The notes under the pieces: generated by a model
Database searches by the model: none
The model's input: the letters and a program-made list of their open reading frames with translations, nothing else
What the model was told of the DNA's origin: nothing
Position numbers and translations under genes: made by a program
Shown here: one piece after another, positions 6,954 to 41,975 of the stretch
Numbering within the stretch: position 1 is the stretch's first letter
How the letters are laid out: each line of letters opens with the position of its first letter
Assembly: GCA_018398765.1 (NCBI GenBank)
Contig: JAHBMJ010000189.1
Coordinates: forward strand, 1-54,224
Source: Chromera velia
Lineage: Eukaryota
Reading direction: 5' to 3'
DNA length: 54,224 bases

Positions 6954-9900
6954 TGACCTCTGTGGAGAGCCTCCCGCATCTGCTAGCGAACCGCGCAGTC
7001 GAAATCGTTTCTTCCTGCATGGAGTGCACAGGCAGACAGACAGATACGATGATCCCAACTCACATACATTTACTGGTACTCAATCAAACATGGGTGAAAA
7101 AAGGTGACTGCGTAAGGAGGGAGAAGGTACAAGCTCTTGCAGCAAACGAAGGAACGACTCTTCGTTGCGGACATACATCTATTCTCTCCGGCTTTCTTTC
7201 TTTCTTTCCTTCTTTCTTTCTTTCTTTCACTCACTCACTCACGAACGAACGAACGAACATGCAGATGCGAAGAGAGACAATCCGAAGAGCTGGAAGAAAT
7301 AACAAATTGAGGGCCAACGAAAGAACGACTGGGGTTACTCAAAAGCAGTCTTTATACGACCAAAACGCCTTGAGAAAAAAATCCGGCCTGCTCTAAAGTT
7401 GCCCCCCCTTCTCAGCGTACAGAGTTCCCCTGCCACCTGAGAGAGACACGTGCAGACCACCGATGCCCCCTAGCTCCTATTTCATTTCTTTCTGCGACCG
7501 ACCAGTCTGGAGAGGTCAACAGAGAGGTTCGAAATCACGATCTGCACAGAAAGAGAAAACAGTGTAGGCGCTTTCCGTCAAACCTTTCTGGAAAAGCTAA
7601 ATGTTTATTGTACTAATGCGCGATGCCCATTCTTTACCCCAAACTGGGAAAGCTTCAACACAGAGGCATGAAGCAGAAGTAACGCACGTGCAGGAGTATC
7701 AATGAATGACAACCACCACCAACACGCAATCTCTGTCTCCCTCACGGAAAAGGAACACAGAGGTGAGCAGACGGAATAACAAACAGTCAACAACGCCGGA
7801 AGGGACCCACGTCTATATGCAAAGGGCTGCTGTGACAAAATGACCCCCTTCAGGAAGACAAGGCACCCACAAAGCCAGACTCCAAAAAAATACAAGACGG
7901 GGAAAAGCCAAATGCAGGCCATGAACCACTCAATCAATCAATCAATCAACTGATCGACCCCCCCCCCCCCCCCTCCTCGCCCCCTACGAACCGTCCTACA
8001 GCTGCCCCCAAAGGAGTCTCTCAAAAGACTTGTCAGGAGAGAATTTCGAAAAGGGACGTGACCAAGTTGCGACTGGAGATTTTCATTTCTTCCGACACTG
8101 TCACACAACATGCATGAACAGAGGAGGGGTTTGGGATGAGGCACACGAGCTCGAATGCAAAGAAAGTTCTGCCTGCCTGGAGGTTCTCATCTCATCATTT
8201 GCGCACGTAATCGAGCGATCTCGCAGGACCATCTAACTGAACGAAAAAAAGAAAATCAACTGAAAAGCTTCGACCATTCGCACTTTTCTTCTTTGTTCGA
8301 CCGAGCCCCGTCAGACTGCCACAAGCTGCCCCTCCTATCCTTGTCAAAATTGAAATATGAAAGAGCGACGCTCAAAGAACAGAAAATGGGAAGAGAAGAA
8401 ATGATCAACTCAGTGTGGAAAGGGCATGGAAGAAAGGAAAAAAACGCAGAAAGAGAAGGGAACGAGAAAGATGACCCACCAAGAGGCGCTCCCCTTCTCC
8501 CGTGCCATCAGACTCGCACTTCTTCCTCCTCTTTCCCCCTCTTCTCCCAAAACCCCCACCCCAAGAGCCGAACTCGAGGCCCAATTTCTCATGGAAGGCA
8601 CAACGCTGGAAGACCGTCCCCGAGGGGCCCCGGCATGCCCTGCAGTCTCGGGGGGATATCGTGGTGCAGAGCCCCCAAGTGCCCCGGCACGACGGGGTGC
8701 CGTCGGTGTCACTGCAGATGCAGGTCGCCCCCTCTTTTTCGTTCTTGCCCCTCCTTCCCGATCGTCCTCTTCTTCCTTTGACTCATTTTCCCTCTCTGCC
8801 AGCAGCCTCGTTCCTTTCTCCTTCTGCTGACGAATGTTCAATGCAACGATCACATGCTCCAAGTGATGGAGAGAGAGGTTAATGTGCCGAGCCTCCTGCA
8901 GACGTTTGCCTTCCAGAGTGCTGCGTCGAACCCTGGAAGACGTACACAGAACGAGGAGGCGGAGAGACGGTAGTCAGAATAGACAGAGACGCGAAAGTAC
9001 TTTCTCAACAATGCAGTAATCCAAAAGACAAACGAAGAAAAACGAACGGAATTCAGGAGAAAAACTTTTTTTTCACCGGGAGGTTCAGGGAAGAATCACC
9101 CAACCAGCATTTGTTTTTTTGCAGGGGATCTGTTTCCGATCTAAACGAAGAGATTCGAGACAACAATACAGATGAGTGAAACAACGACCTCTTAATTCGA
9201 AAGAGAAGACCAAATGACCTCTCAGATCCTGCCAGGTCGACCAGATGAAGTTTTGCAGTCCTCTCTACCACAGGCCCAGAAGGCAAACGTTCGCGCATCT
9301 GCGAAAACAAAGAAGTACGATACACGAAGGCACATAAAGACGTGCACAAAGAAGAGAAGATGCTACGAAAATCATTCCAATTCTTCTTCTTCCCTGTCTA
9401 CACATTCCTTTCCCAGGCCTGCATGGCGCATCCCCGATCACCAGACACAAACACCAAATGAAAGAGCAAAAGAAAAAAACATGATGAATCTAAACACGCT
9501 CCAGCCTCCATTCTTTCTTCATTGCTGACAGCTTCACTGAATCACTTCCCTCTCTCCCTGCCTTCTCCACTCCTACACCCACCCACCTGAAAATACATCG
9601 TGAAGATACAGTGGCTCCTACTGGACACGAGATTCATTGCAGTCTGGGCCACCGCCCGGTTCTCTGCCCCCCTCTTCAGAAGAGAAAGGGCCTCACGCAA
9701 GGATCCTACAGGGACGATCGACAGGCCGCGGGCATGAACTTGTCGGTCTGCCCCCTCGCTGCAATAAACCTGCAACATGCGCATTTAATGTAATCTATGG
9801 GTGCATACACAAATAAACACCCCATGTACGTCCCACATTTTTGCAGCAAAGAAAACACCCAAATGATGTTCCCACGGATGCATGCATGAACTTCCTTCCC

Positions 9901-12854
9901 TCAATCCACTTGGTGGTGCATCCAGCCTGACAGTCTACAACCACCATGTCTCGACCGAAACGAAACTCAGAGCGAACAAAAGCATGAAGCCTTTATCGCC
10001 AAATTGCTGCTGGATGACACAGGAAGAAGAGAAGAAGAGAAACAGTTCACCTGTCGTCCTCAACCCCCACGTCCATTCCCTTCCCTCTTTAAACCAAAAA
10101 CAGAAGTCTGCATGTCAATTTTGCACATTTACTGCATAGACGAAGACGCCTTCTCACTAAGCCCCTCTTCGTTACAGCTTACGACCAACCCACCCTTCTG
10201 AAGTGAGGTACCTCCTCCCCCCCCCCCNCCCCCCCTTCCTGTCAGTGTTCATCCCCCCTCCCCCCAACCCCGCAGACGGAGGCAATCTCCCTGCCTGCCC
10301 GAAATGGCCACCCCACGGCACCGTCTGCTGGTGCTTTGCCGTGAAGTTGTTGTCCCACGGGGGCTGCCTCGCTTTGCCTCCCCTGTGACTGGACTCTGTC
10401 AGGGGTGCTCTGCCTTGTTGGGATTCTGTCGGGGGTGACGAGGAAGGGTTCTGTTCCTGTTTTGTGGACAGACTGAGAAGGTCGTACCTGCAAATGCAAA
10501 CATGCAGACATGTATCAATGTTAAGAAAACGAGAGATACCGCTCCGGGTGGGATGATACGTTGGAAGTCTCCATCAAGCAACAACATGTTCTCATTTCTC
10601 TAGCTGCCCACCCACCCACCCGCTGACCCGATCTCATTGTAGATTTCCATGAAGGACACGGAGATGCACCAGCTCTCAATTGATGTCGAATTCTGCCTTC
10701 CGGGCCCGCCCTCTTGCTTCTGCCTCAGCATCCTCGCCCTCTTGTCGAAAAAAGATTCCAACGTTCGAGGTATCAGGCCTCGTCTTGCACCTCCCCCGTC
10801 TCCCATCATCGTGTATGTCTTTCCAGACCCGGTCTGTGCAGGTGCAGAAGCAAACAGAGATATTACTAGGAGAAAGGAGATCATGCACATGCAAGGGGGG
10901 AGGGGAAATGTCCCGAGAACAAAACAAACCCAGAGAATATTGAGGGCGCAGACGTCCAGTGGAGCCCTCTGTTCCTTCCTTGTTTTTTTCTTTTGTCGAT
11001 TTGTCTTTAAATCTTTCTGTCTTTCCTTCCTTTCTTCCTTCCTTCCTCGCTTTCTTGCTTCCTTTCAATTTGTGTCTCTTTCTTCTTTTCTTCTTTCTTT
11101 TGCCCTTTGAACCTCCGGTTGACAAGCTTTCTTTGTTCTCCGTCTCTCGTTTTCTTTTCCCTGCTCCCTCTCTTCGCGTTTCATTCTACGAGAAGACAAA
11201 AAGCAAAAACCTTGTGTATGCTGTCGCACCAGAAATCAAGTCCCTGAGAAGAGACACTTACCTGGCCATAGCAGAAGATCTGCACAGAAAAAGACAGAGA
11301 AAACAGAAAATTGTCAAACAGACGGTCTAGTCGTACCACAAATTTCCAACAGACATCCACAATGGAAGAATTTAGGCACATTCGAGGCAAATCGGCGAAG
11401 ACGCAGGGAGAGAGAGGGGGGGGGAGGGGGGGCAGGCAACGATATAGAATCTCGAGGATATAATGGTCAGTTGTCCGCAAAGGCCAGTTCATGCACGAAC
11501 ATGGAAAGAGAAGACATTCCGCGTCTCCTTTTGAAAGGAGCAAACTATGAGAGCAAAAACGCAAATCGAGACTCGTGAAGCGGTGCCTAGGTTGGGACGG
11601 TCGGCTTTTACTCGCACTCGCTTACCGTTCCGTTTCTTCCTTCAAGGCAGCTGCATGCAGAAAGCAACAAGCGCAAATGAAGAGACAGACGCACAGAAAG
11701 GGAACAAAAAAGGCTGCGGGAAGAAAATGCAAAGAACCTAGAAGGAAAGTGAATATGATCAACGGCAGAAAAGAAAAAATGAGAACCGAACAGATCGTTC
11801 GAGAAGACAAGAGAAGAAAACAACACAGACATGCACAGAGAAAGCCAGGAAGGAAGACGGAGACGCACCTGTCCAGCATTTTCAGTCCCAACCTGTCGAA
11901 GACTTCCGCCTGGCCTGCAGAAGGAAAGAAAGAAAAAAAGAGGAAGGACCAGCAGGGAAATTAATGATCCGAGGAATCAATTGAGCTGCGCATTGTCAGA
12001 AAAGCTCTATAACCAAGATGGTCTTCGGCAGATGGGCAAAGAAAAGGCGCGCACGATGCCTCCAAGAATGGCAAACAATGTTCATCCCTGTGCTGTCCTG
12101 TTCCGGTCCTTCCTAATTGCTGCTGAGGTGCACGCCATGCCCACTCTCACTGCCTGCCTCCATTCCTTCCGATCAAAACAGTGGACCAAGTCTCAGCTAC
12201 AGACTCATGCGTCAATAAGCGCGCAACAACAAGCCATTCATTGTCGGCAACCCCCGCACGCTCATACCTGCTTTGGGATCGAAGCAGTGGTCGAACGAGA
12301 ACTGAAGAGGGGGCTGCAACAACAACGAGTATCAAAAATCAAGGGGGAAAGGGTCACTGACAGAAAGGAGAATGGTGTTTTGCCTCTAGGGAGAACGAAA
12401 CAAAACGGGGAGAAGATCCAGAGGGGAAAAAGAAAAAAAAAACTGAGCGGAAGGGCTTTCATGTACTGCATCCTGGGAGAGTCACAAGGGACTCGCCCTC
12501 GTTGAATGTGGACAGGGGCAGAGGTTTCCTTCCCTCCTCTTTCTCTTTCCACGGGTATCCTTGACAACTAAGAGGAAGGAGCAACACCGACCAGACTGAG
12601 GGACATGTCTGCGGGACCGAGAAAGAGCTGGACCCCCTCGGCGTCGTCCCCCTTCCCGTTTCCCTGGGCCTGGATCTTTGCCTTTTCGATTCCATAATTG
12701 ACTGAATGTGCCCTGCAACAAAAGCGGAAGAGGGAGAACACACACTTCAAACGAGCGAAGGTGCAGATACGCGAGTGTCAAAGAGCGCTTCTCAAGCAGC
12801 AACCGACGTTGCTGGGGGCCGGAGCCTGCCGAAGCTTTCCACTCGGTACTTCAT
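6954..12854 (-). CDS. Kinesin motor domain, kinesin-9 (KIF6/KIF9-like), multi-exon
   Basis: Exons joined by eye at GT-AG sites read MKYRVESFGRLRP (ATG 12854), PLQFSFDHCFD, QAEVFDRLG, CLEGRNGT, IFCYGQ|TGSGKTYTM (P-loop), VSFMEIYNE, YDLL, MNLVSSRSHCIFT (switch I), KLHLVDLAGSER (switch II), EARHINLSLHHLEHVIVAL, HVPFRNSLLTSLLRDSFGG, EETISTARFASRC. The NLSLHxLExVIxAL motif resembles KIF6. The 3' boundary is approximate. Confidence 0.9.
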
Positions 12855-17600: not shown

Positions 17601-20446
17601 CTCTTATTATACTCATAAAGATTTTCAATAGTGAGACGTACGTTTTGGATCAGCTTTTCGTGATGACAATTTAGGTATAGAGGTTTTAATGATGATGATG
17701 ATGATGATGATGATTGAGTGATATGCTTTGGGGTGCCTCACAAAAAAACTACTAGAAAAAACACAACATGTATACATATACGGTGTTATCATCTCTTCTT
17801 GCATATCGCGTAAGTATACAGCCCATTATTGTTCAAGTACCTGGTATTTGTGTAAAATAACTTCAATATAGTATATGTATATAATGGTACTCAAATTGTT
17901 TGTATGTCATAACTGCATATTTAAATTGTGAAGAAATTTATCAAAAATAAAATTTAATTTAAGAATCAATTATAACGGAATCTTTATTTTTAACAAATCT
18001 AGAAACAGATTGCTGCTGCTATAACTGGTCTACTACTAGTACCCGTGAAGGTTTTCTGATAACATTGCTTCAATTTGTAACAATTAAGTTAGAGGTCTAA
18101 GATGAATTTTCCAGTTTACTACATCTTTGATTTGATTAGCTTAGATTTCTTTATAGAATTAAATACATTGACTTAAATCAGAAAAAATTAGAGTATTTAA
18201 CTAGTCTAGTAACTAGTTGAACAATAGATCACTTAAATTCAAAATCTTCGTTAAAATTATGCTTTAATATATCACTATAGTCTATAGGGTTATCAAGATG
18301 GTTTGAAGTGTTTTACTCCATGCTACAAATTATGTGACAAATAATCAAACAAACGAAAGTTACTAGGAAATTCAAGAAATATATACAAGCCAGTGCCAGT
18401 GCACGCATCATATTTGCATTGAAAAATACCGTGACTTGTCACGTGTCAAGTGCTGATTCACTGTTGAAAAGGTCTTCATGGCGGATATCTCTGGAGTAAG
18501 GCCGTTTTATAAAAGATGATGAGGCTACTGAAATTACCTCGATTCACTATGGGGGAAAGGGGGGGAAGAAGAAAGATCCTAACTTCGATTCCCAGGTGGC
18601 ATTTCCATTTCAGGCTGCAATGATCGAAATCGACGGTCTCGACTGATTGTTGCATGCACAGAGTTTGAATTCAGAAGTCGATAAATGGCTCAGGAAGCGG
18701 CCGAATTCTAGGAGATCATGCAACTTGAGAAAGAAAGAGCAGTAGAGGACCAGTCGATCCCAGTTGATCACCAAGTGTCTCGTCTCTCTCAACCAGACCC
18801 TCTCAGCAGTGCAGGGAAGCAAAACACTCTAAACATTTGCTCCTTGTCGATCGAGCAGATAGTTTACCTTCGGTCTTCTCTCAGACTCCGTTTCTTCTTA
18901 TCGTGGCTGAAGTCTTCTGAGAGTCCTTTCATACCAGAGTGGAAAGTGACTCAATCGCTCGTTTCTATGTCTCAAAACTTGTCGTCGTCTCTCTGTGTCT
19001 TCGTCTGCATTCGCCTATTTATCCGGGAACACAGCTGTCCCGCATACAAACAGACAGACAGACTAGATAGTTTCCTCTCTCTTCCGTTTATTGACTCATT
19101 CACGAAAATCCCCTTCCTTTTCGGGGTCTCGCAACACACAGATAGATAGATAGACAGACGGAGCTAATGACTGGCAACCAAAAACGCTGGAAGGAACAGA
19201 GAAGGTACACCGAAATTTCGAGGACTGTGTGTGTGTGAGAGAGAGAGAGAGAGAGGGAGCGAGAGAGAGAGAAAACAAAAATGAGAGAAAGGTGGAATTA
19301 CTGGACAACGGCCCAGAAGCCGCTGGAAAGAAAGGATACAAAAAGCGCATGAGACTTCGTTGCACTGTAAATTTCGTGGAATCACTCGGCCGCTCGACTG
19401 GACTCTCCGGCTTCGAGTGGGAAGAATTCAAGAACTTCATTTGAATTTCCTATCATGGAAATCAAATGTACTTCTTTACTCCTCCTCTCTGACAAACAAC
19501 AGCCAGAAAGAAAAGGACATGAACACAGACTGAAAGAAAAACAAAAAGAAAGGCAGAAAGACAGAAAGAGAGACAAAATGAGCAAAAGCAGATTCAAGGG
19601 CAGGCCACCGACCGGCAGTGTTGTTACATTTCACCACACGCATACAGGGAAGGGAAAATCACTGAAGACGCGAATGAATGATCGAGGGAATCATCCGCTA
19701 AGACCCTGATGGGTTTAGGATGAAGCTGGGCGGAATGAAAGAAAAGACCCCCGCGGGACTCAAAGATTCACGACCGTCTTACGAGAGATGTATGAAAATG
19801 ATTTTCCCGGACTGAGTTTTCTCTTTCTCTCTGTCTCTCCGACTGATTTCCATTCATTTGCTCGTTCTCATCGCACCTCTTCGACCCTCCCACCTCCTCC
19901 GCAAATCCCCGTCCAATTCTGTCTTAGATCGACAGAACCATTTAAGGACTCAAAAGAAGAACAAGAAGAAGAGAGATCTACGATTTGATCAAAGAAAGAG
20001 CGAGGCGGACTGCCTGGACTGTCTTCACAAAGTGATTTATTCAGTCCGGAAACCTTCTTCAGGGCACTGCACACTCAAACCGCCGTGGCCGCAGAGCCAA
20101 AATCTCCTCCATGCTCCGTCTGTCCCCCATGCAATTCATACAAGCGCCTCAGGCTACCTTTCCAAAATACCAGGTACTCCTCCCGAGGCACTTGCACAGT
20201 TAGGAGCCGCTTGCACAAGTGGCAGGGGAGCCTCCGAGGTCGAATCTTCTTCAGGTCGCATGGGAGCTTCGATTTCCTGCGGGCAGGCAGGCAGACAGAC
20301 AGACAGGCAGGCATACTTCGAGGGACAGAAAGCGACTGTAAGACTTCCAACCCATGATCTCAAGGGGGGGACAAACGCGAAAGGATGAGAGAAAAAAGTA
20401 AACGCACAGGCAAGCAGGGCAGGATGAAAACGAAAAGCAAACAAGA

Positions 20447-23248
20447 TCACCAGACTTGAGGATAGCGAGAGAGCTTCATGTGAACATCTATGTATCTGAT
20501 GTATGCGTCTATCTCTAGATCTAAATCTGCGTATTGATACACCTCCATACCTACCAGTAGAGGATCTGGAGACTTCTTGGTGCGCCGCTCGGTGTATGCC
20601 CTGATCGCTGCGTCGATGACCATCATGTCAACACTCTCCTCTGGCTTTGTTTCGTGAAGCTGTTGCGCCTCTGGCTTCTGTGTGCTCCTGCTTTTCTCTG
20701 CAAGGCCATCAGGGTCCGACATCTGGTGTACGTCTGGGACGTCAGCTACTCCCTTCATATCGACGCTTGGAGGTGAGTGGAGTTCCTGGAGCTCTTTCAG
20801 GGCTTTGTTACCAGCCTGAACAACGACGGTTGACATTCTTCTTCGGCCCGTAACAATTTCGGGTTGCAGTTCCTCTGGAGGTTCTTCCCCCTTGTCGATG
20901 CAGGCAGTGATCTTCTTCTTCTCCTGCTGGAGCGTCGCTGTCCACTTCGAGCGAATGTAGTAAACATACCTGCACACGGGGGGGGGGGAAACAGAGCAAT
21001 GAATAAATAAAGTCAATTGAAAACGGAAACCTGTGATTCAGAAGCAAAAGGAGAACATGGAGAGGCGAACAAGACGGAAAAACACGGTGAGAAAGACCCG
21101 ATGAAAAAAATGACAAAAGGGGGGAGCTAGAAGGAAAGGAAGGAAGCAGGGAAGAGAGAGATAAAGAAGGACAGAAAGAAAGAAAGAAAGAAAGAAAGAA
21201 GGAAGGACGGACAATCCGACTCACGCTGAGAAAGCCAATTTGGATATGAGATCCATTGTTGACAACACGATGACCTCCGCTTGCGGCGGAATGACCCTGG
21301 CGCCCATCGGCCCGATTATCCACGTAATTGGGAACGCCACCCACGTGACCACCACACACACGGCAATGTATCGGAGATTCGATTTTCCTGCATGTAACCA
21401 AAGATCGATGAAATGAAAGAGAAAAGGAATTCATCGCACACTTCCTGCCTAGCTGAGACTAATGCGTATATATCTCGTGATGTCCGAGAAAGACAAAATT
21501 GAATGCTTGCATCCGTCTGAAGGGTCAACCGGCACGTTGCCAAACGAATGCATGTACCCTCCTTGTCGTACTTCATGCGAACCACCCGATGCACCCACTC
21601 ATGAATACCGGAAGGAGTCGAATACATCTGAACAGATACCGCCTTCTCGTTGGTTCCTTCTTGATTTGCTGGCTGAGAAGCTTTTTCACAGGTTCTGTTG
21701 CGTCTCTCGAATGTCTGAATTCAGTCAGCATCGATGGCGACTTGAAGATTGATTCCCCTCCACAGAAGTAAAGAAGCAGCTGCAACAACTGCTGCATATC
21801 GTAAACATGGAATACCCTGCTCACCCAAGAACAGAGCAGTCCCCCGACAGACAATACAGACAGACAGACCTTTAAACAAGTTGTCATGATTCTCGGAAGT
21901 CTCCCTGACAGCCCAGTCGAGGTTGACAACAAGGAGCACAAAGAAGGACCCACCGAGGCCAAATGCCATCATACGGTAAGAGAACTCAGGCGTCGCGTTG
22001 GCCCACAAACCGAGAGCCAGCATGAGGAATGTGCAAAGCACGAGTTCGACCTGCCTCTGCTTCTTGCTCCGTGCGAGCAGAGAGACCTGCCAGCTAAAGA
22101 GCGGACAGGTGATGGCAAATTGGACAAACCTGCAGACAAAAGAAATCCAGGTACCATGCATGATGCGAAGCACACGAGTGCAGGTTCTTGTTGCGACCCG
22201 AAGACCCTCTTACGGGTTTATATTATTACGCGTATTTCAGCGTGGCGTGCAATTTGTCGACCGATCATTCCCTCGACAGACACGGAGGTCGAGGGCCACC
22301 ACAGATGGACAGCTACAAATTTAGGGGCTTGGTCGGATCGAACAGCGCCATGCGGACTACGAAAGGGACACCCGAAATGAAAGGGAGCGACACTCTGAAG
22401 AGACACGAAGCAGTGAAAGAAACCAACACCCACATGCAACCACGGCACACGCGTCCTGTGTTGTCTCAGCGATGCCGGACTGCACTTCGACGTCACTTGT
22501 ATTAATATATGCAAGTGGTGTGGTACCCGACTTGTGAAACAACCGAACAAGTTTGTGCGAAATCATGTGCGATACGTAACTCCTTGCTGGACAAAATACA
22601 TGGTTTATTACGACATATAGGGTGCTAGATTCCCATGTAGAGGCTCCCATAGACTCTGTGCTGAGTCGTTGCAGAGACGACACCGGAACTCGAAATTGAC
22701 TGACCTTGCTATGTCGTTGCGCGTGCAATCCTCAAAGATGACATCGTCGACTTGCGAGAGCATGATGAGGTTGTGGCACCCGGAGAAGAGCATGATGTAC
22801 CCGTTCAGAGAGGTACACAGGGAGAAGACCGCCAGGCTCTCGTCCTCCACGTGGGGGTCAGGAAAACGTGTCCAGTAGAACAAACCAACCTGCATGCATG
22901 AATTCAGCCCAAAATCGGGTAGGCCAAGCAACACATGCAAACACATTCAGGGAAGACGAAGTGACGTCGCATTTTCACGAATCCTGACGCAGATTATCTG
23001 CATGCGCAGATACAGATTTAAAACTACATGCAGGCGCTCTGGAAACACATGGGGTATATAGGAAAGCTGACCGTCATACAGATCGACGCCTGGGCGATTC
23101 GAATGTAAAATGTGGATTCGCTCATTTCTTCGATGTTTCCGTCCGCTATGCACTCAGCCAGGTAGCTACGTGTTCCTTCTGCAAATGCTGCGAGAAGAGA
23201 AACCGCGGCCAGCAGCTGGGCAAGACAGGGCATCCTGTGCGGAACCAT
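20447..23248 (-). CDS. Microbial (type-1) rhodopsin with N-terminal hydrophobic leader and long C-terminal tail; exons 23248-23072, 22889-22705, 22129-21870, 21387-21225, 20969-20447
   Basis: All four introns are GT-AG and phase-compatible. The spliced protein has helix C DIARFVQFAITCPLFSWQV, helix D LVLCTFLMLALGLWA, helix E MAFGLGGSFFVLLVV, helix F IAVCVVVTWVAFPITWIIGPMG and helix G IVLSTMDLISKLAFSAYVY (DxxxK, Lys codon 21239-21241). The last exon may splice further. Confidence 0.9.
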
Positions 23249-23906
23249 TTTGCAAATTCAAGCCAGAAAGACGTCAGGGGTCAGCTTTTCATTTGCAACG
23301 TTCGATTCTCTGCACCACCCGACAAACGCGTGTTGCTCCAACAACCAGTAACTGAGTACAAGAGGTGCAGTGGAAAGTCCAAGGGACGGACCTCTTGGAC
23401 TGGGGGCTTGCAGCTAGCTTAGGGGCTGCCACAGAAGGCACGTCTTTGCGGAGACAGTCACGGCCATTACATGCTTATCTGAAGCTCTGCATGCATGAAT
23501 CCTGCTGTGTTTTTTTAGACACAAATTATTAATAATAAGTGCATGCCCCCACCGCGTCACCGCGCGTTGCATAGCGCGGACGGAACCCCAATTTAATGGG
23601 TATATAGCGCGGACGGAGGGTGAACCGACGGAATTTGGACATGCAGCTAGTCTGAGCATGCATGTCTGAGCTAGATGATCCGATGTCCGTCAAAATCCGT
23701 CTAAGTATCAATACTGGTGACCTCCTCAGTGCATAGGGCGAAAATCTGTTGCACGGAAGAGTCACTTTGTGGCCGAGGTTTTTTTCATCAGCACATCCTG
23801 CCTGTTCTCTATTTAAGCGCCTGTAGACGCACGCCGTCTCCTTCCTCCAGACAGTCGACCTTCCTCTTTTTTGCCCTTCGCCCTTCTCGTGCCACCGTGA
23901 ACCTAC

Positions 23907-26900
23907 ATGGATGACACAGGCAAACAGACAAAGTTTTCCACCGAAATGACGTCTCAGAGCCCTGCCTCCGTTGAGGATGAACGAGAGCCTCTTGATCAAG
24001 ACGAACAGAAAGTTCAAGAAGAAGTGGAAAAGATCGTGAACGGAGAGATCGCTCCCCAGTTTCGATTTCACATTCCCCCACCTCAATGCACCGAGGCCAT
24101 TTGGCTCACGCCATCGCGTTTTGTGGCTCTGGTAAAGGCTGTTACTTCTGCGGTGAGCATTTGGCCCGTTCGTTTTTTTGTGCTTCGTATCTCTGCCTTT
24201 GATGAGAAGGCAGCTTCATCTAAACGCATTGCAATCGGAGACGGCGGGATCCTTTTGTCTTTTTGCGAACGCCCCCCGCCGAGTTCCAATGCACAGCCAC
24301 CCCTTGTCATTGTGCCAGTCGTCTCTTGCCCTCTCTGTCGTCTGTGTTGCAAGTTTTTCAATTTTGCTCTCCCAATGTTGCCCGTCTCCGTCCTTTGTTC
24401 GTTTTCTGTCGACCAGTCTCTTCGTTCCCCTCTCCTGCGTTGGTGCCTCTCTCTCCTGACGCTCCTCCAAGTTCCCTTTCGTCCCTTCTGTCTCACGTCC
24501 TAGACCTTCGTCCGACTCGACTGTTGGTTTTGATTAGACGCTCCCCTTCCTTCCAGTCTCGTTCTTTGGTGCCGGTGTCGCCCGAATGTCCGTCAATCTT
24601 TCTTCTATCCCTGATACTGGAATGAAATTACGTCCTCTGCTCCTTGTCTGCTGCTGTGCAGATCCATGAAGATCCGGAAAGAGACACGTGGCCGCCTGAC
24701 TGGGAAAAGGTCAGTGCGTGTGCTTGCTCAGTGCGCGCAGTAGACAAATATGAATACGTACTTCTGCGGTACGAACAGTTGAGAGCAACAAAAAAACCAT
24801 AGGCCCCTGTGTCACTTCCAAAGTTTCAAAGGGCTTTTTCTTGGTCTTCTCTTGGACACATGACCAGTTCGATCGCCTAGTTGCCTTTCAACGTGTGGGG
24901 GGACGGACTTTCCTTTCTCACTCATTGGCCCTCTCCCAGCTGGACCCTTTGTTTTCCCTCTCTGTCTGTGTCTCTGTTTTTGTTTGCAGATAAGTGAAGT
25001 TGTGGGCCTCCCCCCCGACCACTGCGAGTTCGTCTGGCTGAATGTCGAGCCGCATCACTTCAGAAGTCAGTCGGAGAGAAGTGAAGTCAAGCAGAGCAAC
25101 TACAAAGGATTGCAGAGCGTAAAGCATGCAGCACGTGAGTTTATCTTTGTCGCCAGCTTACACTACCGAACGGCTTGGCAGAAGGAAAAAAAGGTACCCT
25201 TGTTTCACCGTGACCTGACGTGAGCTGCTCTGATGTGATGAAGTTTCAGATCACTCGAGTGTGGGTGCATCAAGCGAAATTGTCCGCAGCAGGGTTCAGG
25301 GAAGTCACAGAAGACAAAGTGTGGGAAGCAAGCTTTCCTGGCACTCATATTTATTTTTGCATTCCGTCCGATTACCCCCTTTTCTATTTGCAGCTTCTCT
25401 CTCTTGATCTAGTCAGAGTGGAGAGCCGTGCTTCTGCCTACATGAAACACACACAGTTTGAATCCCCTTTGTTGAATGCAGCTTCTTTGGGTTTGATCGT
25501 GATGGAGTTCGATCCCTCAAGTCTTGCTATCGACCATGCAGAAGAGGTGAGGTTGGTGTTTCTTTTTTTTTGTTCTCCCGGTTGTTTTCTTTCATTGTCT
25601 CTCTGTCCTCTTTTGTCAACCTCCGTGGTCTCTGTTGTGCTTGGAAGTTCGATCGCGATTCTACAAGAAGTTTCTTCGGGGAGTTTTCCATGTTCTCTTC
25701 TCGTCACTCTTATTCCCTTTGTTGGTGTGTCAGTTTTTTTATCTCCTGCCCCCTCCTCTTTCGCTGCTCGCTGTCGCCGCCCCCTTTTTCTTTCTTGTTT
25801 CTTTTTTTCTCGGTTTCTGGTCTTTCTGTCCCTCTCTCTCCCCACACATACAGAGCGAGAAATAGTATGTACATGTGAGATTAAAGTATGTGTTTCTGTT
25901 CGTATATATATGTGTGCGTGCGTGTGCGTAGGCGTGTGTTCCCCTTGCACACGTTACTGTCTTCAATTTTTTCCGCAGAGCCGATGTCGAGTCGATGCGA
26001 TCCTCCAGCATGCCTTGGTTGGTTCGTAAGCTGAGCTCTCCCTATCTTGCGAGAGGGGGACTTTTCTTCTTCTTCTTCTTCTTCTTCTTCTTCTTGCTCG
26101 TTTCAGTGGGAACCGAAGGACTTTGCTTGGGTCCCTAGTGCTCGACCCTCTTTGAAGGAGTGAAAGGAGGGGCTTTTGTGTGTAAACGGCTCTGTTATTT
26201 CTTCAGATACACCGTTCTTCTGAGTTTGGAAAAGAGGAGAGATCCCTCACTGATAGAGTCAAAGAACACATGCGTTTTTTTCAGATTTTGTGCCTTTACG
26301 CTTGCTTCCATGCGTTCCTTCAAGCACTATTGGCCGTTCCTTTGTCTGCGTTTTCCCCTTCCCTCTGCTTGTCCCCTCTCCTGATGCCCACGAAAGTATT
26401 CATCATGCGTGTCTGTATTGCACTGTTGCACTGTTGCAGTACAGAATACAGCAGATGGAAGAGGCCGAGGAGGCCGAGGGACTCGACAGAGAAGAATTCT
26501 TTGTCGAAGATGCAGACGAGAAACCCAAAAAGAAAGAAAAAGAGAGAGAGGAAGAAAAGAAAGAGGAAGCGAGAGCCGACTATCAAGATGAAGCAGTCAA
26601 AAAACCAGCCTCAGAACCACACTCGAGAGAGAAAGAGGGAAAGGCAAAATTGGAGATGGAGATGGAGAATGACGCGTTGATCACCGGGACTGCTCAAGAG
26701 GCTGAAGCAAGAGAGAGTGAGAAGAAGGGAGGAAGAAAGAGAAAAGCTCCCGTCTCCTCAAATCCCTTTCAGCCTTCCGCCCCCTTCCCTTTTTCCTCCG
26801 CTTCTTCATCTTCAAGCTCTTCTTCCTCCTCGGCATGCAACCCGACTCAACGGACGGGTCTGGGACTTGTGCCGTCTGCTCCCTGCTTATCCTCGAATCA

Positions 26901-30513: not shown

Positions 30514-32197
30514 CTACAGTCTCCAGTACCATCCCTTTCGCTGTAGGACAAGGGCTACGGGGACCAGGAAGAGAGAGGGTACACAGAAAGACCATACGAC
30601 CCCTGCCAGCTGACATCCCATCCAGGATTTTAAAAGAGGACCAAACACCCAAACCTCCCCCACAGACTTTCCGTCTCCATTCTCTAAATTCAACAAACTG
30701 TCAATGGACTCAGACAGGAGATAGAGAGCAAGAGGGTTACGACCAAATGCGACCAGCACAGATACAACCAAGTTCTTTTGCAGACAAACGGCACCATACC
30801 CTCCTGTCGTGACCTCTCTTTCTTGCCCCCTTTCTTGCTGCACTTGGGCAACCCCTTCTCTAACTGCACCAGAGTCCTTTTCTTGAGGAACGCCAACAAG
30901 GTGCGAACTTCTGTTCAGGTTGTCAAGTCCCCCCCCCCTTCCGTCCTTCCTCTCTCCACTCTTGTCACTTTCATTCCCTCCCAACCCCGGGCCTTCTCTC
31001 GATTCGCACCCCTCCCTTCTCTCCTGTAACAGAAACAGATTCCCCTCTTGCCCCCGTGTGCTTCTTCCTGAAGTTGGCACGCTCCCTCCATTGCTCTGTT
31101 TCCTCCCCTGTTCATCGTTCCTCTCCTTCTGTGTCAGAAGCAACTGGTGGAGACCGTGCGACTGATCCTGGATCAGGTCCTTGGCCTCTCCACAAGACTC
31201 TGCTGTCTCCCCCCTTGCCTGGATCTTCACCTCCAATTGACCTGACTGTGACGGCACTTCTACAGAAGACTGAGCAGTCCTGCTTTGTGGGAGCGCATCC
31301 AGAAGAAAAAAACACACGGCAAAGGTAGACAGGGACGCCCCCCCTGTAATGAAGGCAAAAGGGGGGGTCCAAATTTGCTTAGAGATCGGGAAGAAGTTCC
31401 ACAAAAAAAGTCCAAAAACAATTAGACAAAAGGTCCCAATCATCCAGACACACACGGAAAGAAACCGATTCGCACCCTCCCCCCCCAACAACTCCTTCGT
31501 TCGTCCACCCAAACGAATATGCACTCCCACCATCATTCCCAGGATGCAATTCAAACAAGCCGTCAAAGTCGACAGGGCTCCTTCCGGGTCGAAATATTTC
31601 GACTGCCTGTAAAGATGTGACGATCCAAAAAGCTTCCGATCAACGAACCCCTCGGCAGAGCATTTGGGAGTCAGCACTCCTCTCCCACACTCCTCATCTT
31701 CCACTGAAGGAACACAAAGTTCAAACAGAACACCGCTGTAGATCGAGAGCAGCACCGCTGCGCTTAATGCGGGGATGCCGAGCAATCGACCGAAGTCGGG
31801 TTGTCCACCGCTTTCTCGCGCCACTCGCACGGAGTTCTTTAGAAGTAATTCGAATAAAATTGCGGTAAAGGCGTAGCACACCGCCAGTCTCTGGAGCACT
31901 CCCATCAGTCGAATGTTCTCGAAGAAGACGCCAAATTTGCCTCTCCAGAAGTCCACAAACGGAAATTCATTTACAAACAAACCGAGGAGGAACAGCATCA
32001 AAACACGTCTCCAGAATTTGAACCAACGGATGGGGCCTGTCAAAGCGAAAGGAATGGACATACCTGCAAACGCTCACTTAACACAAGTTAAGTCGGTGAA
32101 ACGAACGACAAAAGAAAACGAAAGTAGAGACAGACAGACATAAAAAGATAGACAGGAAGGAGGGAAGGGAAAGGAAAAAGAAACAGAGAAAGAGAGG

Positions 32198-33791: not shown

Positions 33792-34349
33792 CGGCGACAC
33801 ACTCCTTGTTCTTGACCGTTAAGATTCAGGAGCGGTAATCTAGCAACAGAGAAGCCTAGAGATATATGAAATTCTGTCTGACTTTCACCAGTCTGAAGCT
33901 GGGACATCCATAAAGGAGAAGACATTCAAATACTGCTGATCGGGCCACTAATGCTTTCGGCTCGGGTTGCCGGCGGCGAGCTCGCTGAGCGCGGGCGGGC
34001 GCCCGCGCGCGGCCCAACGCGCCGGGCCACGCGGGTCGAAGCGCGGCGCCTTAAACTGCGCCGGGGCTCTCATGCAGTGTGTCGAATGACGGTCACAGTC
34101 TCGTGATACGTTTTGTGAGCATCCATCCGACATCATCCGACTGCCATCGTGAGCCATGCATCATTGTGTTCCATTCAACAGATGATCAGCTCGTCTATCT
34201 GGCAGTGACAAAATCTGCGTGACAGTTTGGTATGAGTCTTCAGCAGTGCGACCCAGGTCTGGGTTAAGAGTTTACCGCTTCAGTCTGACAACCTCCCGAT
34301 TTCAGTTGTCTGACAGACGCTTACATAAGCTCACAGAGTTGCGCACAGG

Positions 34350-36536
34350 ATGACCGCCTTATCTTTGGCAGAGCATTCTCTCTTCTTCGCGAAGATTGTT
34401 CCCTTTTTCGAGAGTGAACTTCTACACCGTTTGAGGGTTTGCCGTTCGTGGAATGAGAAGGTGAGGAAACTCGTGCGGCGTCTCTCCTTCTACAGCAATT
34501 ACGGGGACTCTATTTGGGTCGAGACCGATTCCCCAGTCGACGGCTCTGATCGTGAAGACGACGACGACCGTCTCATCCTCAAGTTCTTCCCCTACCTCCC
34601 AGCTGGAGGCCTTGACTGCTTCACCAAGTGCTGGTCAGGCGTCCGACGTCTGGACCTTCTCGTTGACGTGAAACCTCCAGACCTTCTTGGAAAGGCACTC
34701 GGGCACTTGACCCGCCTCTCCCACTTGACAGTGTCTCTCTGTGCTACCGATCTTAAGATGCTCTGCGTTCTCAACCCAGGGACCCTCTCAGAGCTTTGCC
34801 TCAGATGTCCAACCGGTTGTTGGCATCAGAGTGCAACGGAGGCAGAAAATGAGAAGGTGAGGTCGCAGGCAGCAAAGGGGGCTGAGGAAGTTTTCCAGCG
34901 CTATGGAGAGACTTTGCGGAAGTTTCGGCTAGACCTTTGCGGCTTGTGTGATGGAGTTTTGCCGTCTTTTGAAGGGCAAAATGCTCACAGCACGTCCTTA
35001 CAAATTCGCAGTCAGTGTCCACTTTTGGAGGTTGTGGAACCTCTCGCATGTTCCTGTCACCACTGTAGAAAGATGTATCGGAATTATGAGCAGGTTGGAA
35101 ATTCCGACCCTGAGCAGTCTCCGGTAGTCTCAGTTGAGGACTATTTGGTTGGACGGAATTTTGACTGTGTGAAGTTGGGACGCTGGGGGCTTCGTCTGTC
35201 TAAGACAGATTGGGAGGCTGTGAAGAACCCCCGACTTACTGGGTTGAGGTATCTACAGGTGTGTGGATGTCTTGCACAGGAGGAAGAAGGGGATTTTGAA
35301 GAGATGGATGTGGACTCCGAGGATGTGAGGGCTGTGTTTGAACAGAACCGAAAAATCGAGTTTAGTTGTCTTCAGTTTTCAAACGAACAGCTGCTCGGTT
35401 TGTTGCCATTTGCTCAGAATCTCCGCTTTGTCAGTTGGTTGTTTGGGTCTTTCTCAGAAGATGTGTGGCGGGAGATGGGAAGGTGGCTGGTCAATCTTCG
35501 CGTGATGTCTTCAAGCTCTTGTCATGATCTCTCGGACATTCACATGAAGGCGTGGGCAGAGGGAATCAGGGCAAGTGGGAAGCCTTCCAAGGTGCGCGTG
35601 ATACATCACAAGGGCTCACGTGTCACTTCTGAGGGCCTTGTAGCAGCCGTTCTTCCCGATAATTTGTGTCCCGAGTTGAGGTCCATAGAGGTGGGGGAGC
35701 ATTGGTCGGGGAGATGGTCGGGGGGAATGAGTGCAGAGGGGATTCGGGCGTGGGCCGGGTCGGGGTTGTGGAGTTTTGCGGTTAACTGGCAACGTCCTGA
35801 GAATTCGGGGGGGTTGTTGGAAGGTCTGAAAGACTTCCTTCGAGGTCCGGTGAGGGTGAGTTTGAGGGAACTTTCCTTGTGGAAAATACGGGGGAGAGTC
35901 ACAGACATTGACGACGAACTGATTGAACTCATCTGTGGTTGTCCCCAGCTGAGCGTATTGTCGTTGGGGAGCGTCGATGGCGTCTCAGTTGCGGGATGGG
36001 AAATATTGAAGAGAGCGCGGGTAGAAAAGAAAATCAGGCTGAGGAGCCTGTGGGTGGGGTCAGACACAAGGCCTGCAGACCTCGATACTGTTGCAACGCC
36101 TTTCTTCCCTCCCCTTTGTCCACCCCCACAGAGTTTGAGTGAGATAATAAGAGAGGAGAATGAGAGAAGACTTGCAGCTGAACGGGAGGAGCAGAGAACA
36201 CAATCGGTTTTGGACTCAGCAGCTGAGGGGGTGAAGAATCAAATTAAAGCAAACTTTCGTCAGACCCTTGTGAAAGCTGCCGCTGAATCGGCAATGCCGA
36301 CTGGGGCAGTCAAGCCAAAGGTCATGCAGTCTCCTTTCAAGTCTATTGGAGGAATTCCAGTACGCGTGGGAGTTCTCTCTTTTTTTGGGAAGGCTCTTGT
36401 TGACGAGATCATTCAAAAGGCCGTTGATGATCTCAAGGTGAAAGAAAGAATTGTGAAAGAGCGCCGAGTTGCGTGGAGACAAACTGTAGAGAAAGAAGGC
36501 TGGGAGACCTGGAAAAGGTTGGTTGATACCTTTTGA
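34350..36536 (+). CDS. Intronless 728-aa F-box-like / leucine-rich-repeat (RNI-like) protein
   Basis: Uninterrupted ORF; N-terminal KIVPFF...LHRLRVCRSWNEKV resembles an F-box; LxxLxL repeats such as CPLLEVV, CPELRSIEV, CPQLSVLSL and SLRELSL. Confidence 0.6.
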   Translation: MTALSLAEHSLFFAKIVPFFESELLHRLRVCRSWNEKVRKLVRRLSFYSNYGDSIWVETDSPVDGSDREDDDDRLILKFFPYLPAGGLDCFTKCWSGVRRLDLLVDVKPPDLLGKALGHLTRLSHLTVSLCATDLKMLCVLNPGTLSELCLRCPTGCWHQSATEAENEKVRSQAAKGAEEVFQRYGETLRKFRLDLCGLCDGVLPSFEGQNAHSTSLQIRSQCPLLEVVEPLACSCHHCRKMYRNYEQVGNSDPEQSPVVSVEDYLVGRNFDCVKLGRWGLRLSKTDWEAVKNPRLTGLRYLQVCGCLAQEEEGDFEEMDVDSEDVRAVFEQNRKIEFSCLQFSNEQLLGLLPFAQNLRFVSWLFGSFSEDVWREMGRWLVNLRVMSSSSCHDLSDIHMKAWAEGIRASGKPSKVRVIHHKGSRVTSEGLVAAVLPDNLCPELRSIEVGEHWSGRWSGGMSAEGIRAWAGSGLWSFAVNWQRPENSGGLLEGLKDFLRGPVRVSLRELSLWKIRGRVTDIDDELIELICGCPQLSVLSLGSVDGVSVAGWEILKRARVEKKIRLRSLWVGSDTRPADLDTVATPFFPPLCPPPQSLSEIIREENERRLAAEREEQRTQSVLDSAAEGVKNQIKANFRQTLVKAAAESAMPTGAVKPKVMQSPFKSIGGIPVRVGVLSFFGKALVDEIIQKAVDDLKVKERIVKERRVAWRQTVEKEGWETWKRLVDTF

Positions 36537-40500: not shown

Positions 40501-41975
40501 CCTGTCTGACACAGCAATATAGTGCAGGTCGTCTTCCCACTCGTCTTTCAGAGTGAGGTAATAGCGTGCGTTAGGGCGGTCGGCCCTTCCGTATACTAGG
40601 TCAGCTTGCAGGCGCTGCCTGGGACCTGTGACCTTCAAGGGAGATGTGCAACCGTCAGAAACATTGCGAGGTTTTACGCATGCGCAGGTCCCCCCCACAG
40701 CTCGTCGTGAAATACCGTAAGGGGGGGCTTTGGGGTGCCCTTTCAGTGCCCGACGGAGGGAAATCCAGGTCTTCGTGACGCGTGCATGCCCAATCTCAAC
40801 GTGGTGGGCACAAATCAATTCATCGACCATCTCAAAACTGATGGTCTCCAACTCGGAGGCTGGAGGGGAGCGGCTGCCCTTTCGGGGGCAGCGCTTACGC
40901 AGACGGCACTTTCGCTTCTTTTTTTCAGCAGTCACACCCTTGATGTGCAACACGGGGCACGCTGCAGCTTCAGTCGTAGAAGCTGTATGGCAGCATGAGC
41001 ACGGCGGACCCGGTCCTGTAAGGAGACGGAGGCTCACGACCATCGTCAAGGGTGGTTGGCTGGAGACGACCGACTGAGCAGTCGGGGAGGGCCCGGCAGT
41101 CTGCGGCTGGGGTGGGTCTACATTCGGTTCGGCATGACTCGAGTCGGATGGGCAGGGAAGAGGTGTATAGCATCCATTGTCCTCTGAGGGCACAACAGAG
41201 GATGAAGTTGGCGCTGAATATGAAGACGCCATGGTGAGGGTACGGGGCTCTGTAGGTTTGGAGGCGGAGACGGTGTCATTCGTGCGAAGCTCTGGGGGCT
41301 GAGACAACGCAAGGAAGAACAAGTCGTTTGGGGAGCGTTGGAAGTGCAGAGAGGGGCGATGGGGAAAGGAAAGAATGCCCGTGGCATACTCAAATGACGC
41401 CTTGAGGGGAATCAATGCCGCATTTCCGATCAAGACCGGAGTGATCGCGTTGGTTTCCAGGATGTCTGCCTCGAGAGAGAGATCACCGGAGAGGCTTCGA
41501 CATGGGATAATGGCCTTTAGCTCCACAGGCATCTGACCGTTGGCAGTCAAGGAGGTGGAAGGCCGGGGCAAGCGGCGCGCTCGGTCCATGTGAGCTCGTC
41601 TTCCTCCTTCCGCTTGCGCAGCCACCCACGAGTGCAGCAGGTGCGGCTGGCTCCAATGTCCAGGATTGCAAAGAATCCATGAAAGGCGAAGGAGAGGAGT
41701 ACGGAATTCTGTGCAGCACGCAAAGCTGCCAAAGCACTCTCCACAGCTGTGCGGACATCTGCAGGGAGACCGTCCAAGACAGTGGAGATGCTGGAGGGGT
41801 CAGAGCAAGCATTCGGGGTGACCTCCTCAGGGTTTTGCAAAACAAGCAACGAGGAAAATGAGGAAGAGCAACCGGAGACGGCGGTCTCGGTGCTGTTGCG
41901 CAAGCAGATTTTTGGATAGACTTTGCCTGAAGCAATCGTAGCATCAAGAATTTTGTTAAGTGAGGCAACAGACAC
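37510..41975 (-). pseudogene. Frameshifted copia gag-pol
   Basis: Protease AILDIGAS; integrase HHVEIGH, LQADL, VITDLGKEF, GRLECAHRE; RT LADIENAYL, KAVYGLKDSG, FVDDL; RNase H WGDAA, SSARTEL, NRADPLTK. Split over several frames. Confidence 0.9.

What the first reader, a model, noticed from the sequence alone, without database searches (positions are those of the whole stretch)
20447..23248. Cryptic five-exon microbial rhodopsin with an intact retinal lysine
Seen: splicing five exons gives a seven-helix protein with the type-1 rhodopsin hallmarks: helix C R-x6-TCPL, helix F WxxFPxxW and helix G DLISK. The exon carrying helices F and G (21387-21225) is in a frame the ORF track does not list, so ORF-based annotation would miss or fragment it. 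Established: DxxxK in helix G carries the Schiff-base lysine. Inference: this is a functional photoreceptor of a divergent protist family.
Basis: partly seen in the sequence, partly recalled or inferred. Interest (0 to 1): 0.92.

Follow-up and report, generated by a model that had tools for sequence, protein, structure and literature searches.

The report
Chromera blue-light anion-channel rhodopsin paralog
This is a real, spliced six-exon gene of the alga Chromera velia for a retinal-type light sensor that is already in databases, and it is likely a light-opened chloride channel like its tested Vitrella relative VbACR2.

Summary
The rhodopsin is real but not cryptic. The gene is Chromera velia Cvel_15662 (UniRef A0A0G4F8P7). 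The database model includes the helix F/G exon but misses a transcribed 41-residue N-terminus with a likely signal peptide. Pfam Bac_rhodopsin scores E 5e-22; the model (pLDDT about 95 over the membrane part) is a seven-helix type-1 rhodopsin. The motifs are QTQ in helix C, Thr-Cys-Pro, and D253/K257. Bulzu 2022 lists this accession as a QTQ rhodopsin. The family (10 Chromera genes, 1 Vitrella, 1 Alphamonas found) is one clade containing VbACR2, a measured 440-nm anion channel (33% identical, no gaps). Best reading: a light-gated anion channel, untested. New here: the corrected N-terminus; loss of an otherwise invariant Arg (R77S); and a fold and predicted trimer closer to bacteriorhodopsin-like proteins than to dimeric channelrhodopsins, echoing apusomonad rhodopsins. 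Chromera zoospores flee non-red light through an unknown receptor; this family is a candidate.

The parts
23249..23430 (-). 5' UTR, with a three-codon upstream ORF at 23292 and an in-frame stop just before the start codon
   Evidence: contigs reach 23430
23072..23248 (-). Exon 1 coding part, aa 1-59: likely signal peptide (about 1-25), Cys33, start of helix A. The database model starts only at M42 (23125).
   Evidence: paralogs P0002-P0005 and P0007 carry the same extension
22705..22889 (-). Exon 2, aa 60-121: end of helix A, loop with E74 and S77, helix B, B-C beta-hairpin with Cys114
   Evidence: joints; secondary structure
21870..22129 (-). Exon 3, aa 121-208: helix C (R121, Q124, F125, T128, C129, P130, Q135 = QTQ motif), helices D and E
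   Evidence: Pfam PF01036 E 2.7e-8
21225..21387 (-). Exon 4, aa 208-262: helix F (W223, F226, P227, W230) and helix G (D253 at 21253-21251, retinal Lys257 at 21241-21239)
   Evidence: Pfam E 4.6e-10; bacteriorhodopsin matches; carried in contigs of X1, X3, X4
20555..20969 (-). Exon 5, aa 262-400: end of helix G and low-confidence cytoplasmic tail with a basic RRxS-type site (R305-S308)
20277..20554 (-).
20154..20276 (-). Exon 6 coding part, aa 401-440 and stop; the 3' UTR runs on to at least 19700
   Evidence: identical to the end of P0001

Best explanation
Cvel_15662 is a spliced Chromera velia type-1 rhodopsin gene of the VbACR2 family, and it likely encodes a blue-to-green light-gated monovalent-anion channel of the plasma membrane, predicted to be a bacteriorhodopsin-type trimer. 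Shown here: gene structure, splicing, seven-helix rhodopsin fold, Lys257, Asp253, Gln at the D85 site, and membership of the VbACR2 clade. Inferred: the signal peptide is cleaved near T26; all-trans retinal binds K257 with D253 as the only nearby carboxylate; isomerisation opens a Cl-/Br-/NO3- path because the D85, D96 and GtACR1-E68 sites are neutral (Q124, Q135, S95); the current shifts membrane potential and feeds a light response such as zoospore avoidance. The long unstructured tail likely serves regulation or targeting.
For: P0011 is CEM28120, the protein measured as a 440-nm anion channel with Gln128 and Asp257 (PMC10147648). P0001 aligns to it at 33% identity and 62% positives over 234 aa without gaps, E 2e-56, which puts Q124 on Q128 and D253 on D257. 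The 11 chromerid rows tested form one clade at 100/98 among 40 rows and 99 among 126 rows. Key sites across 12 members: C129, Q135, T154, W223, P227 in 12 of 12; Q124 in 11 of 12; K257 in 11 of 11 that reach helix G. Model pLDDT 88-98 per block over residues 1-250; best folds are microbial rhodopsins, Z 26.9, rmsd 2.3 over 218. Trimer score 0.86 against best control 0.01, contacts agreeing at least 85%, pLDDT at least 78 (the mark was reached by 17 of 29 eukaryotic pairs and 0 of 30 single chains; may be memory of solved trimers). XTQ apusomonad rhodopsins are also anion channels (PMC12557545).
Against: No Chromera QTQ protein was found tested in the searches made. The window protein sits in a seven-member Chromera subclade (100/99), not next to VbACR2. 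That subclade lacks two basic residues at the cytoplasmic start of helix B and has Phe at W86 in 6 of 7. The window protein alone has lost an Arg found in the other 11 of 12 members (R77S) and has K74E, making that entrance acidic. It has 12 private changes in the membrane domain against 6-8 in its four closest paralogs. Selectivity is context-dependent: the same Glu pattern goes with anion or cation channels (PMC8406140). The sister ETx/NxxxK clade, which by motif is the dinoflagellate group, gave only about 20 pA of undetermined selectivity (same paper). Contig differences from the window include 6 amino-acid-changing against 4 silent in the coding region, too few to show constraint.
Confidence: 0.6

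Rival explanations
1. It binds retinal but conducts little or nothing, acting as a degenerate channel, a modulating subunit of mixed trimers with its paralogs, or a sensor that signals through its tail.
For: Private loss of R77 and K74; ten paralogs allow relaxation; related dinoflagellate-type proteins give tiny currents; PMC9601134 argues that long-tailed relatives may signal rather than conduct; best sequence matches among solved structures include sensory rhodopsin II.
Against: All retinal-pocket and motif residues checked are kept; VbACR2 also has a long tail yet passes 0.89 nA; no effector domain in the tail (Pfam).
Confidence: 0.22
2. It is a light-gated channel with shifted selectivity (protons or cations), because the Chromera subclade replaced basic residues at the cytoplasmic entrance with neutral or acidic ones.
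For: Charge count over loop A-B plus helix B is +1/-4 here against +5/-3 in VbACR2; the B-C loop is +1/-5 against +2/-4; E245 at the E204 site in 6 of 7 subclade members.
Against: No carboxylate at D85, D96 or the GtACR1-E68 site; PMC10147648 says a neutral D85 site marks all known ACRs and nearly no CCRs.
Confidence: 0.1
3. It is a light-driven inward chloride pump, QTQ standing in for the NTQ or TSA motifs of chloride pumps (motif names recalled).
For: Top structural matches are cyanobacterial chloride pumps (6k6i Z 26.9, 7zou 26.7), and the scaffold is pump-like.
Against: Those Z values tie within 1 with sensory rhodopsins and proton pumps; the QTQ relative VbACR2 reverses near 0 mV, so it is passive; Cys at T90 is a channel hallmark.
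Confidence: 0.06
4. It is a chance joining of exons or a pseudogene.
For: None of weight; one conserved Arg is lost.
Against: All five introns bridged in contigs, open frame of 440 codons, nine Chromera paralogs.
Confidence: 0.02

Closest known systems
VbACR2 (CEM28120, Vitrella brassicaformis), 'Colpodellida ChRs' (PMC10147648)
   Same: QTQ + Thr-Cys-Pro + DxxxK; Thr at D115; Gly at the S141 colour site; N-terminal hydrophobic leader; long tail with a basic RRxS-type site; colinear 234-aa domain, 33% identical; same clade.
   Different: Arg instead of Lys at R82; Phe instead of Tyr at W86; Gly instead of Ala at the G122 colour site; fewer basic residues at the start of helix B (R77S unique); Cys33/Cys114 pair absent from VbACR2; untested.
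Chromera QTQ rhodopsin clade of Bulzu et al. 2022 (PMC9601134)
   Same: This very accession, A0A0G4F8P7, is row 733 of Table S1 (TM3 RFQTQ, TM7 DLISK).
   Different: The parts read give no function, no link to VbACR2 and only 4 Chromera QTQ entries; 10 genes were found here, and the N-terminus is extended by 41 aa.
Apusomonad rhodopsins, XTQ type (PMC12557545; trimeric SfApuR2 structure, bioRxiv 10.64898/2026.10.19.760008)
   Same: Neutral D85, Thr89, Gln at D96; structure closest to bacteriorhodopsin-like families; trimer (predicted here); anion conduction (inferred here).
   Different: Reported as specific to apusomonads; XTQ members have Glu/Ser/Thr, not Asp, at D212. No ApuR could be identified among my hits, so kinship was not tested.
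Dinoflagellate TCP channelrhodopsins (SmChR1, mgdChR1; PMC8406140)
   Same: Thr-Cys-Pro in helix C; the ETx/NxxxK rows are the sister group in my tree (95/90). Their identity with the published group rests on motifs.
   Different: Glu at D85 and Asn at D212, the reverse counterion arrangement; tiny currents of unknown selectivity.
Canonical ACRs/CCRs (GtACR1, C1C2), Rh-PDE, bestrhodopsin, heliorhodopsin
   Same: Seven-helix retinal fold; Cys at T90 and neutral D85 shared with ACRs.
   Different: Lower structural scores: Rh-PDE Z 22.8, heliorhodopsin 22.6, GtACR1 21.9 (rmsd 3.4), C1C2 21.4, bestrhodopsin 19.9, against 24.9-26.6 for bacteriorhodopsin-like families. No enzyme or bestrophin domain.

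Membership tests
Type-1 (microbial) rhodopsin | PF01036 above the curated cut-off | tested here: met
   78.8 bits against 24.6, E 5.4e-22
Type-1 (microbial) rhodopsin | Seven-helix rhodopsin fold | tested here: met
   seven helices plus B-C hairpin; Z 26.9, rmsd 2.3, 218 aligned
Type-1 (microbial) rhodopsin | Helix G lysine in DxxxK and aromatic retinal pocket | tested here: met
   D253, K257, W223, F226, P227, W230, M157; Phe replaces Trp86
Type-1 (microbial) rhodopsin | Binds all-trans retinal as a Schiff base | not testable with these tools
   shown only for the relative VbACR2 (PMC10147648)
Colpodellida ChRs / VbACR2 family | One clade with CEM28120 | tested here: met
   100/98 in IQ-TREE on 40 rows; 99 in FastTree on 126 rows
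Colpodellida ChRs / VbACR2 family | Gln at D85, Asp at D212, neutral residue at the GtACR1-E68 site | tested here: met
   Q124, D253, S95 on VbACR2 Q128, D257, T99
Colpodellida ChRs / VbACR2 family | Light-gated passive anion current | not testable with these tools
   needs patch clamp
Canonical dimeric channelrhodopsins (CCR/ACR) | Thr-Cys-Pro in helix C | tested here: met
   T128-C129-P130; motif defined in PMC8406140
Canonical dimeric channelrhodopsins (CCR/ACR) | Homodimer and channelrhodopsin-type fold | tested here: inconclusive
   model 3-5 Z closer to bacteriorhodopsin-like chains than to GtACR1 or C1C2; a trimer passed but a dimer was not run; language-model features point to channelrhodopsin clusters at 0.92-0.93
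Canonical dimeric channelrhodopsins (CCR/ACR) | Phylogenetic nesting among channelrhodopsins | tested here: inconclusive
   no named ChR references were in hand; three ChR-like rows (my reading of motifs) branch outside with weak support
Enzyme rhodopsins and bestrhodopsins | Fused cyclase, phosphodiesterase, kinase or bestrophin domain | tested here: not met
   only PF01036; tail mostly low confidence; transcript has its stop at 20154
Apusomonad rhodopsins | XTQ/DXQ motif with fixed Gln at D96 | tested here: met
   Q124-T128-Q135; definition
Apusomonad rhodopsins | Monophyly with ApuRs, apusomonad host | not tested
   no ApuR sequences in hand; the host is an alveolate, so membership is unlikely
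Heliorhodopsins | ESL-type helix C motif, SxxxK, inverted topology | tested here: not met
   QTQ and DxxxK; a signal-peptide-like leader fits an outside N-terminus; PMC9601134 classes it Type-1

The most novel reading that the evidence does not exclude
The chromerid QTQ rhodopsins are not true channelrhodopsins but a separate origin of light-gated anion channels on a trimeric bacteriorhodopsin-like scaffold, converging on the XTQ design of apusomonad rhodopsins; Chromera expanded them to ten genes, and a diverged seven-gene branch including this one supplies the unknown receptors for zoospore light avoidance.
Probability: 0.25. Interest if true: 0.62.

Novelty: new member of a known kind. Interest (0 to 1): 0.33.

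Why it matters
The gene itself is catalogued, so the discovery value is modest. It matters as one of ten apparently untested Chromera relatives of a working blue-light anion channel: a ready set of natural variants for optogenetic silencers, and candidate receptors for the avoidance of non-red light by zoospores of the closest photosynthetic relative of malaria parasites, for which the passages read name only cryptochromes (PMC10739334). The corrected N-terminus is practical: a construct made from the database model would lack the leader and Cys33. If the trimeric pump-like scaffold holds, the family is a further independent origin of anion channels.

Tried and rejected
No whole genome was held, so paralog DNA, synteny and dN/dS could not be done. 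First fold from five sequences failed (mean pLDDT 45) and was replaced by a 112-row alignment. A careful tree of 126 rows was killed; FastTree on those rows and IQ-TREE LG+G4 on 40 rows were used; 28 of 154 rows were dropped as fragments or, for P0008, for lacking helix G. Six alternative donor/acceptor pairs for intron 5 were tried; only 20555/20276 matches the database protein and contigs. Exon 2 alone matched no rhodopsin in Pfam or PDB sequences. No listed sequencing run is on record as RNA, and run X6 laid nothing; neither is evidence. Predicted interface residues are no more conserved than the rest (0.66 over 42 sites against 0.63 over 187), so conservation adds nothing to the trimer. 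Plastid targeting was considered and set aside: the stretch after the leader is acidic in this protein and its paralogs (rule recalled). A last word-based search with the 12-row alignment found no new member (8 of 7998 candidates; it even missed known members, so it is weak). The scan's own notes held nothing on this family. My column labels 'Q54' and 'C115' were off by one (Q53, C114) and were not used.

Full report
Observation. On the minus strand, exons 23248-23072, 22889-22705, 22129-21870, 21387-21225 and 20969 onward join in frame across GT..AG introns. Exons 3 and 4 each pass the Pfam Bac_rhodopsin cut-off. Searching with exon 3 returned 5 proteins of 147 candidates, the first 100% identical: Chromera velia A0A0G4F8P7, gene Cvel_15662, 399 aa. 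So the gene is annotated, with the helix F/G exon. That exon is only absent from start-codon ORF lists (69 aa stop to stop).

Gene structure. Contigs of four runs of one study (RNA by guess of the tool, but spliced) were laid on the locus. Intron 1 is skipped in 4 of 4 runs. In one search (X3, X4, X1, X6; X6 laid nothing) the joints table shows intron 3 in 3 of 4 runs and intron 2 in 1 of 4. Introns 4 and 5 are absent from that table, which skips joints beside repeats, but appear as consecutive pieces of one record: intron 4 in X1, X3, X4, intron 5 in X1, X4. One 1958-base contig of X1 runs from exon 2 through exon 6. No listed piece skips exon 4 (3 pieces were not shown). The six-exon frame is 440 aa, and residues 42-440 equal the database protein. 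Contigs reach 23430, past the ATG at 23248, which follows an in-frame stop. The 41 extra residues are hydrophobic at 4-25 and align with the leaders and the conserved post-leader stretch of paralogs. I infer a cleaved signal peptide and a database start that is too late; no signal-peptide predictor was run.

Family. A profile search of 1.84 billion representatives gave 207 hits at E 0.001 and 8 at 1e-30. With this yields ten Chromera genes (Cvel_15662, 16888, 21729, 6422, 24766, 23116, 13779, 26554, 747, 21152), one Vitrella protein, CEM28120, and one Alphamonas edax protein. The Vitrella protein is VbACR2, measured as a 440-nm light-gated channel for Cl-, Br- and NO3-, with Gln128 at the D85 site and Asp257 as the only candidate counterion (PMC10147648; I read parts 1-4 of 6 of the text and the legends of supplement 1). 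The window protein aligns to it over 234 residues with no gap, 33% identical. Eleven chromerid rows form one clade (100/98 of 40 rows; 99 of 126 rows; P0008 left out because its model lacks helix G). The window protein lies in a seven-member Chromera-only branch (100/99). The next branch out holds ETx/NxxxK proteins, by motif the dinoflagellate TCP rhodopsins that gave about 20 pA (PMC8406140, passages).

In print. PMC9601134 names a Chromera clade with QTQ and DxxxK near heliorhodopsins (section 7 read whole), and its Table S1 lists this accession. PMC8818676 mentions ChR-like genes in Chromera and Vitrella (passages). The Chromera proteins tested in bioRxiv 10.1101/2022.09.26.509509 are other genes (Cvel_28437, 30056, 21397; passages). 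I found no functional test of a Chromera QTQ protein: 'VbACR2' occurs in 1 paper, five identifiers in 0 main texts, and one search listed only papers already seen. These searches miss subscription papers and supplements; the figure alignments of PMC10147648 and PMC10865886 (passages and one supplement search) could not be seen and may include this gene.

Residues (bacteriorhodopsin labels recalled, placed through alignment columns and the VbACR2 numbering). R121 (R82), Q124 (D85), F125 (W86), T128, C129, P130, Q135 (D96), T154 (D115), M157, W223, F226, P227, W230, E245 (E204), D253, K257; S95 at the GtACR1-E68 site. All channel-type sites of VbACR2 are kept. Of its two proposed blue-shifting residues the window protein has the Gly (G180) but not the Ala (G161), so I guess blue to blue-green absorption. 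Against simple transfer of function: the seven-gene branch has Ala-Val where the VbACR2-like members have basic residues at 79-80; the window protein alone has Ser at 77, Arg in the other 11 of 12, and Glu at 74 where its six closest paralogs have Lys. Contigs show no difference at these codons. Cys33 and Cys114 occur together in the Chromera members aligned and both are absent from VbACR2, which hints at a disulfide; not tested.

Fold. With 112 aligned rows the model has block pLDDT 88-98 over residues 1-250, seven helices and a B-C hairpin, and a mostly low-confidence tail. Foldseek's listed rows are all microbial rhodopsins. Among 48,161 representatives, bacteriorhodopsin-like families score Z 24.9-26.6 (rmsd 2.2-2.5), schizorhodopsin 24.0, Rh-PDE 22.8, heliorhodopsin 22.6, GtACR1 21.9 (rmsd 3.4), C1C2 21.4, HcKCR1 20.6, ChRmine 20.0, bestrhodopsin 19.9. 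Three copies of residues 1-235 folded as a trimer through helix B against helices D-E: score 0.86, best control 0.01, contact agreement at least 85%, pLDDT at least 78. The calibration was on two copies (17 of 29 eukaryotic pairs, 0 of 30 single chains, 1 of 7 without a solved relative), so the pass may be memory of bacteriorhodopsin trimers; a dimer was not run. Further cautions: 33 of the 112 rows behind the model are pump-like, and language-model features point to channelrhodopsin clusters (0.92-0.93). Canonical channelrhodopsins are dimers (PMC8818676). Apusomonad rhodopsins show the same mix of XTQ motif, bacteriorhodopsin-like fold, trimer and anion current, and are described as an independent origin (PMC12557545, parts 1-3 of 8 and passages; bioRxiv 10.64898/2026.10.19.760008, abstract only).

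Mechanism. Best reading (0.6): a membrane-targeted retinal protein whose light-driven isomerisation opens a passive anion path, as in VbACR2. Rivals: a weak or non-conducting sensor or modulating subunit (0.22), altered selectivity (0.10), chloride pump (0.06), artefact (0.02). Physiological role is inference: Chromera zoospores avoid all tested light but red, and blue light is needed for their formation; the authors found only cryptochromes and 'rhodopsin' does not occur in that text (PMC10739334, passages; PMC13403131, passages). Chromera's other channelrhodopsins are equally good candidates.

Verdict. Real, spliced, already annotated and already listed as a QTQ rhodopsin; a new member of a known kind. 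Added here: the link to VbACR2, a ten-gene count, the corrected N-terminus and exon count, the R77S loss, and the pump-like trimer prediction. Interest 0.33.

Noticed in passing
window 23292-23281 (-): Three-codon upstream ORF in the 5' UTR with the same start context as the main ATG, 44 bases upstream; could damp translation.
   Followed up: no
window 23714-26029 (+): A spliced gene is transcribed divergently, starting about 280 bases from the rhodopsin 5' end (contigs from 23714, loose end joining near 24630); no Pfam match in the frames tried.
   Followed up: partly
P0008 (Cvel_26554) and P0006 (Cvel_23116): Database models look mis-spliced: P0008 lacks the end of helix F and helix G, P0006 has an unrelated N-terminus.
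   Followed up: no
P0012 (Alphamonas edax): A non-photosynthetic colpodellid carries a family member with VTQ, Asn at R82 and NxxxK, so no carboxylate at either counterion site; a UV-absorbing or halide-counterion pigment is possible.
   Followed up: partly
P0016, P0036, P0041, P0065: A four-member clade with DTQ, Thr-Cys-Pro and G/SxxxK branches just outside the chromerid and dinoflagellate-type groups; P0016 is from Eukaryota sp. GEM-RC1.
   Followed up: no
P0093 (unnamed record, 1177 aa): A rhodopsin-like domain lacking the lysine (SxxxT) fused to a P-type cation ATPase.
   Followed up: no
P0031, P0037: ETx/NxxxK rhodopsins with weak TPR matches in their long tails.
   Followed up: no
window 20842-20831 (-) and paralog tails: A basic RRxS-type site recurs after helix G in this protein, several paralogs and VbACR2; a short 'IAN.FD'-like motif recurs in P0003, P0005, P0006, P0007.
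   Followed up: partly
window 8410-11064 (-): Exons of a kinesin motor gene.
   Followed up: no
window 30514-32073 (-): HGSNAT-like membrane acetyltransferase frame, below the Pfam cut-off.
   Followed up: no
window 38121-41799 (-): Weak RVT_2 and integrase matches: remnants of a copia-type LTR retrotransposon.
   Followed up: no
window 34329-36536 (+): Intronless 735-aa frame that looks F-box/LRR-like by eye; no Pfam match.
   Followed up: no
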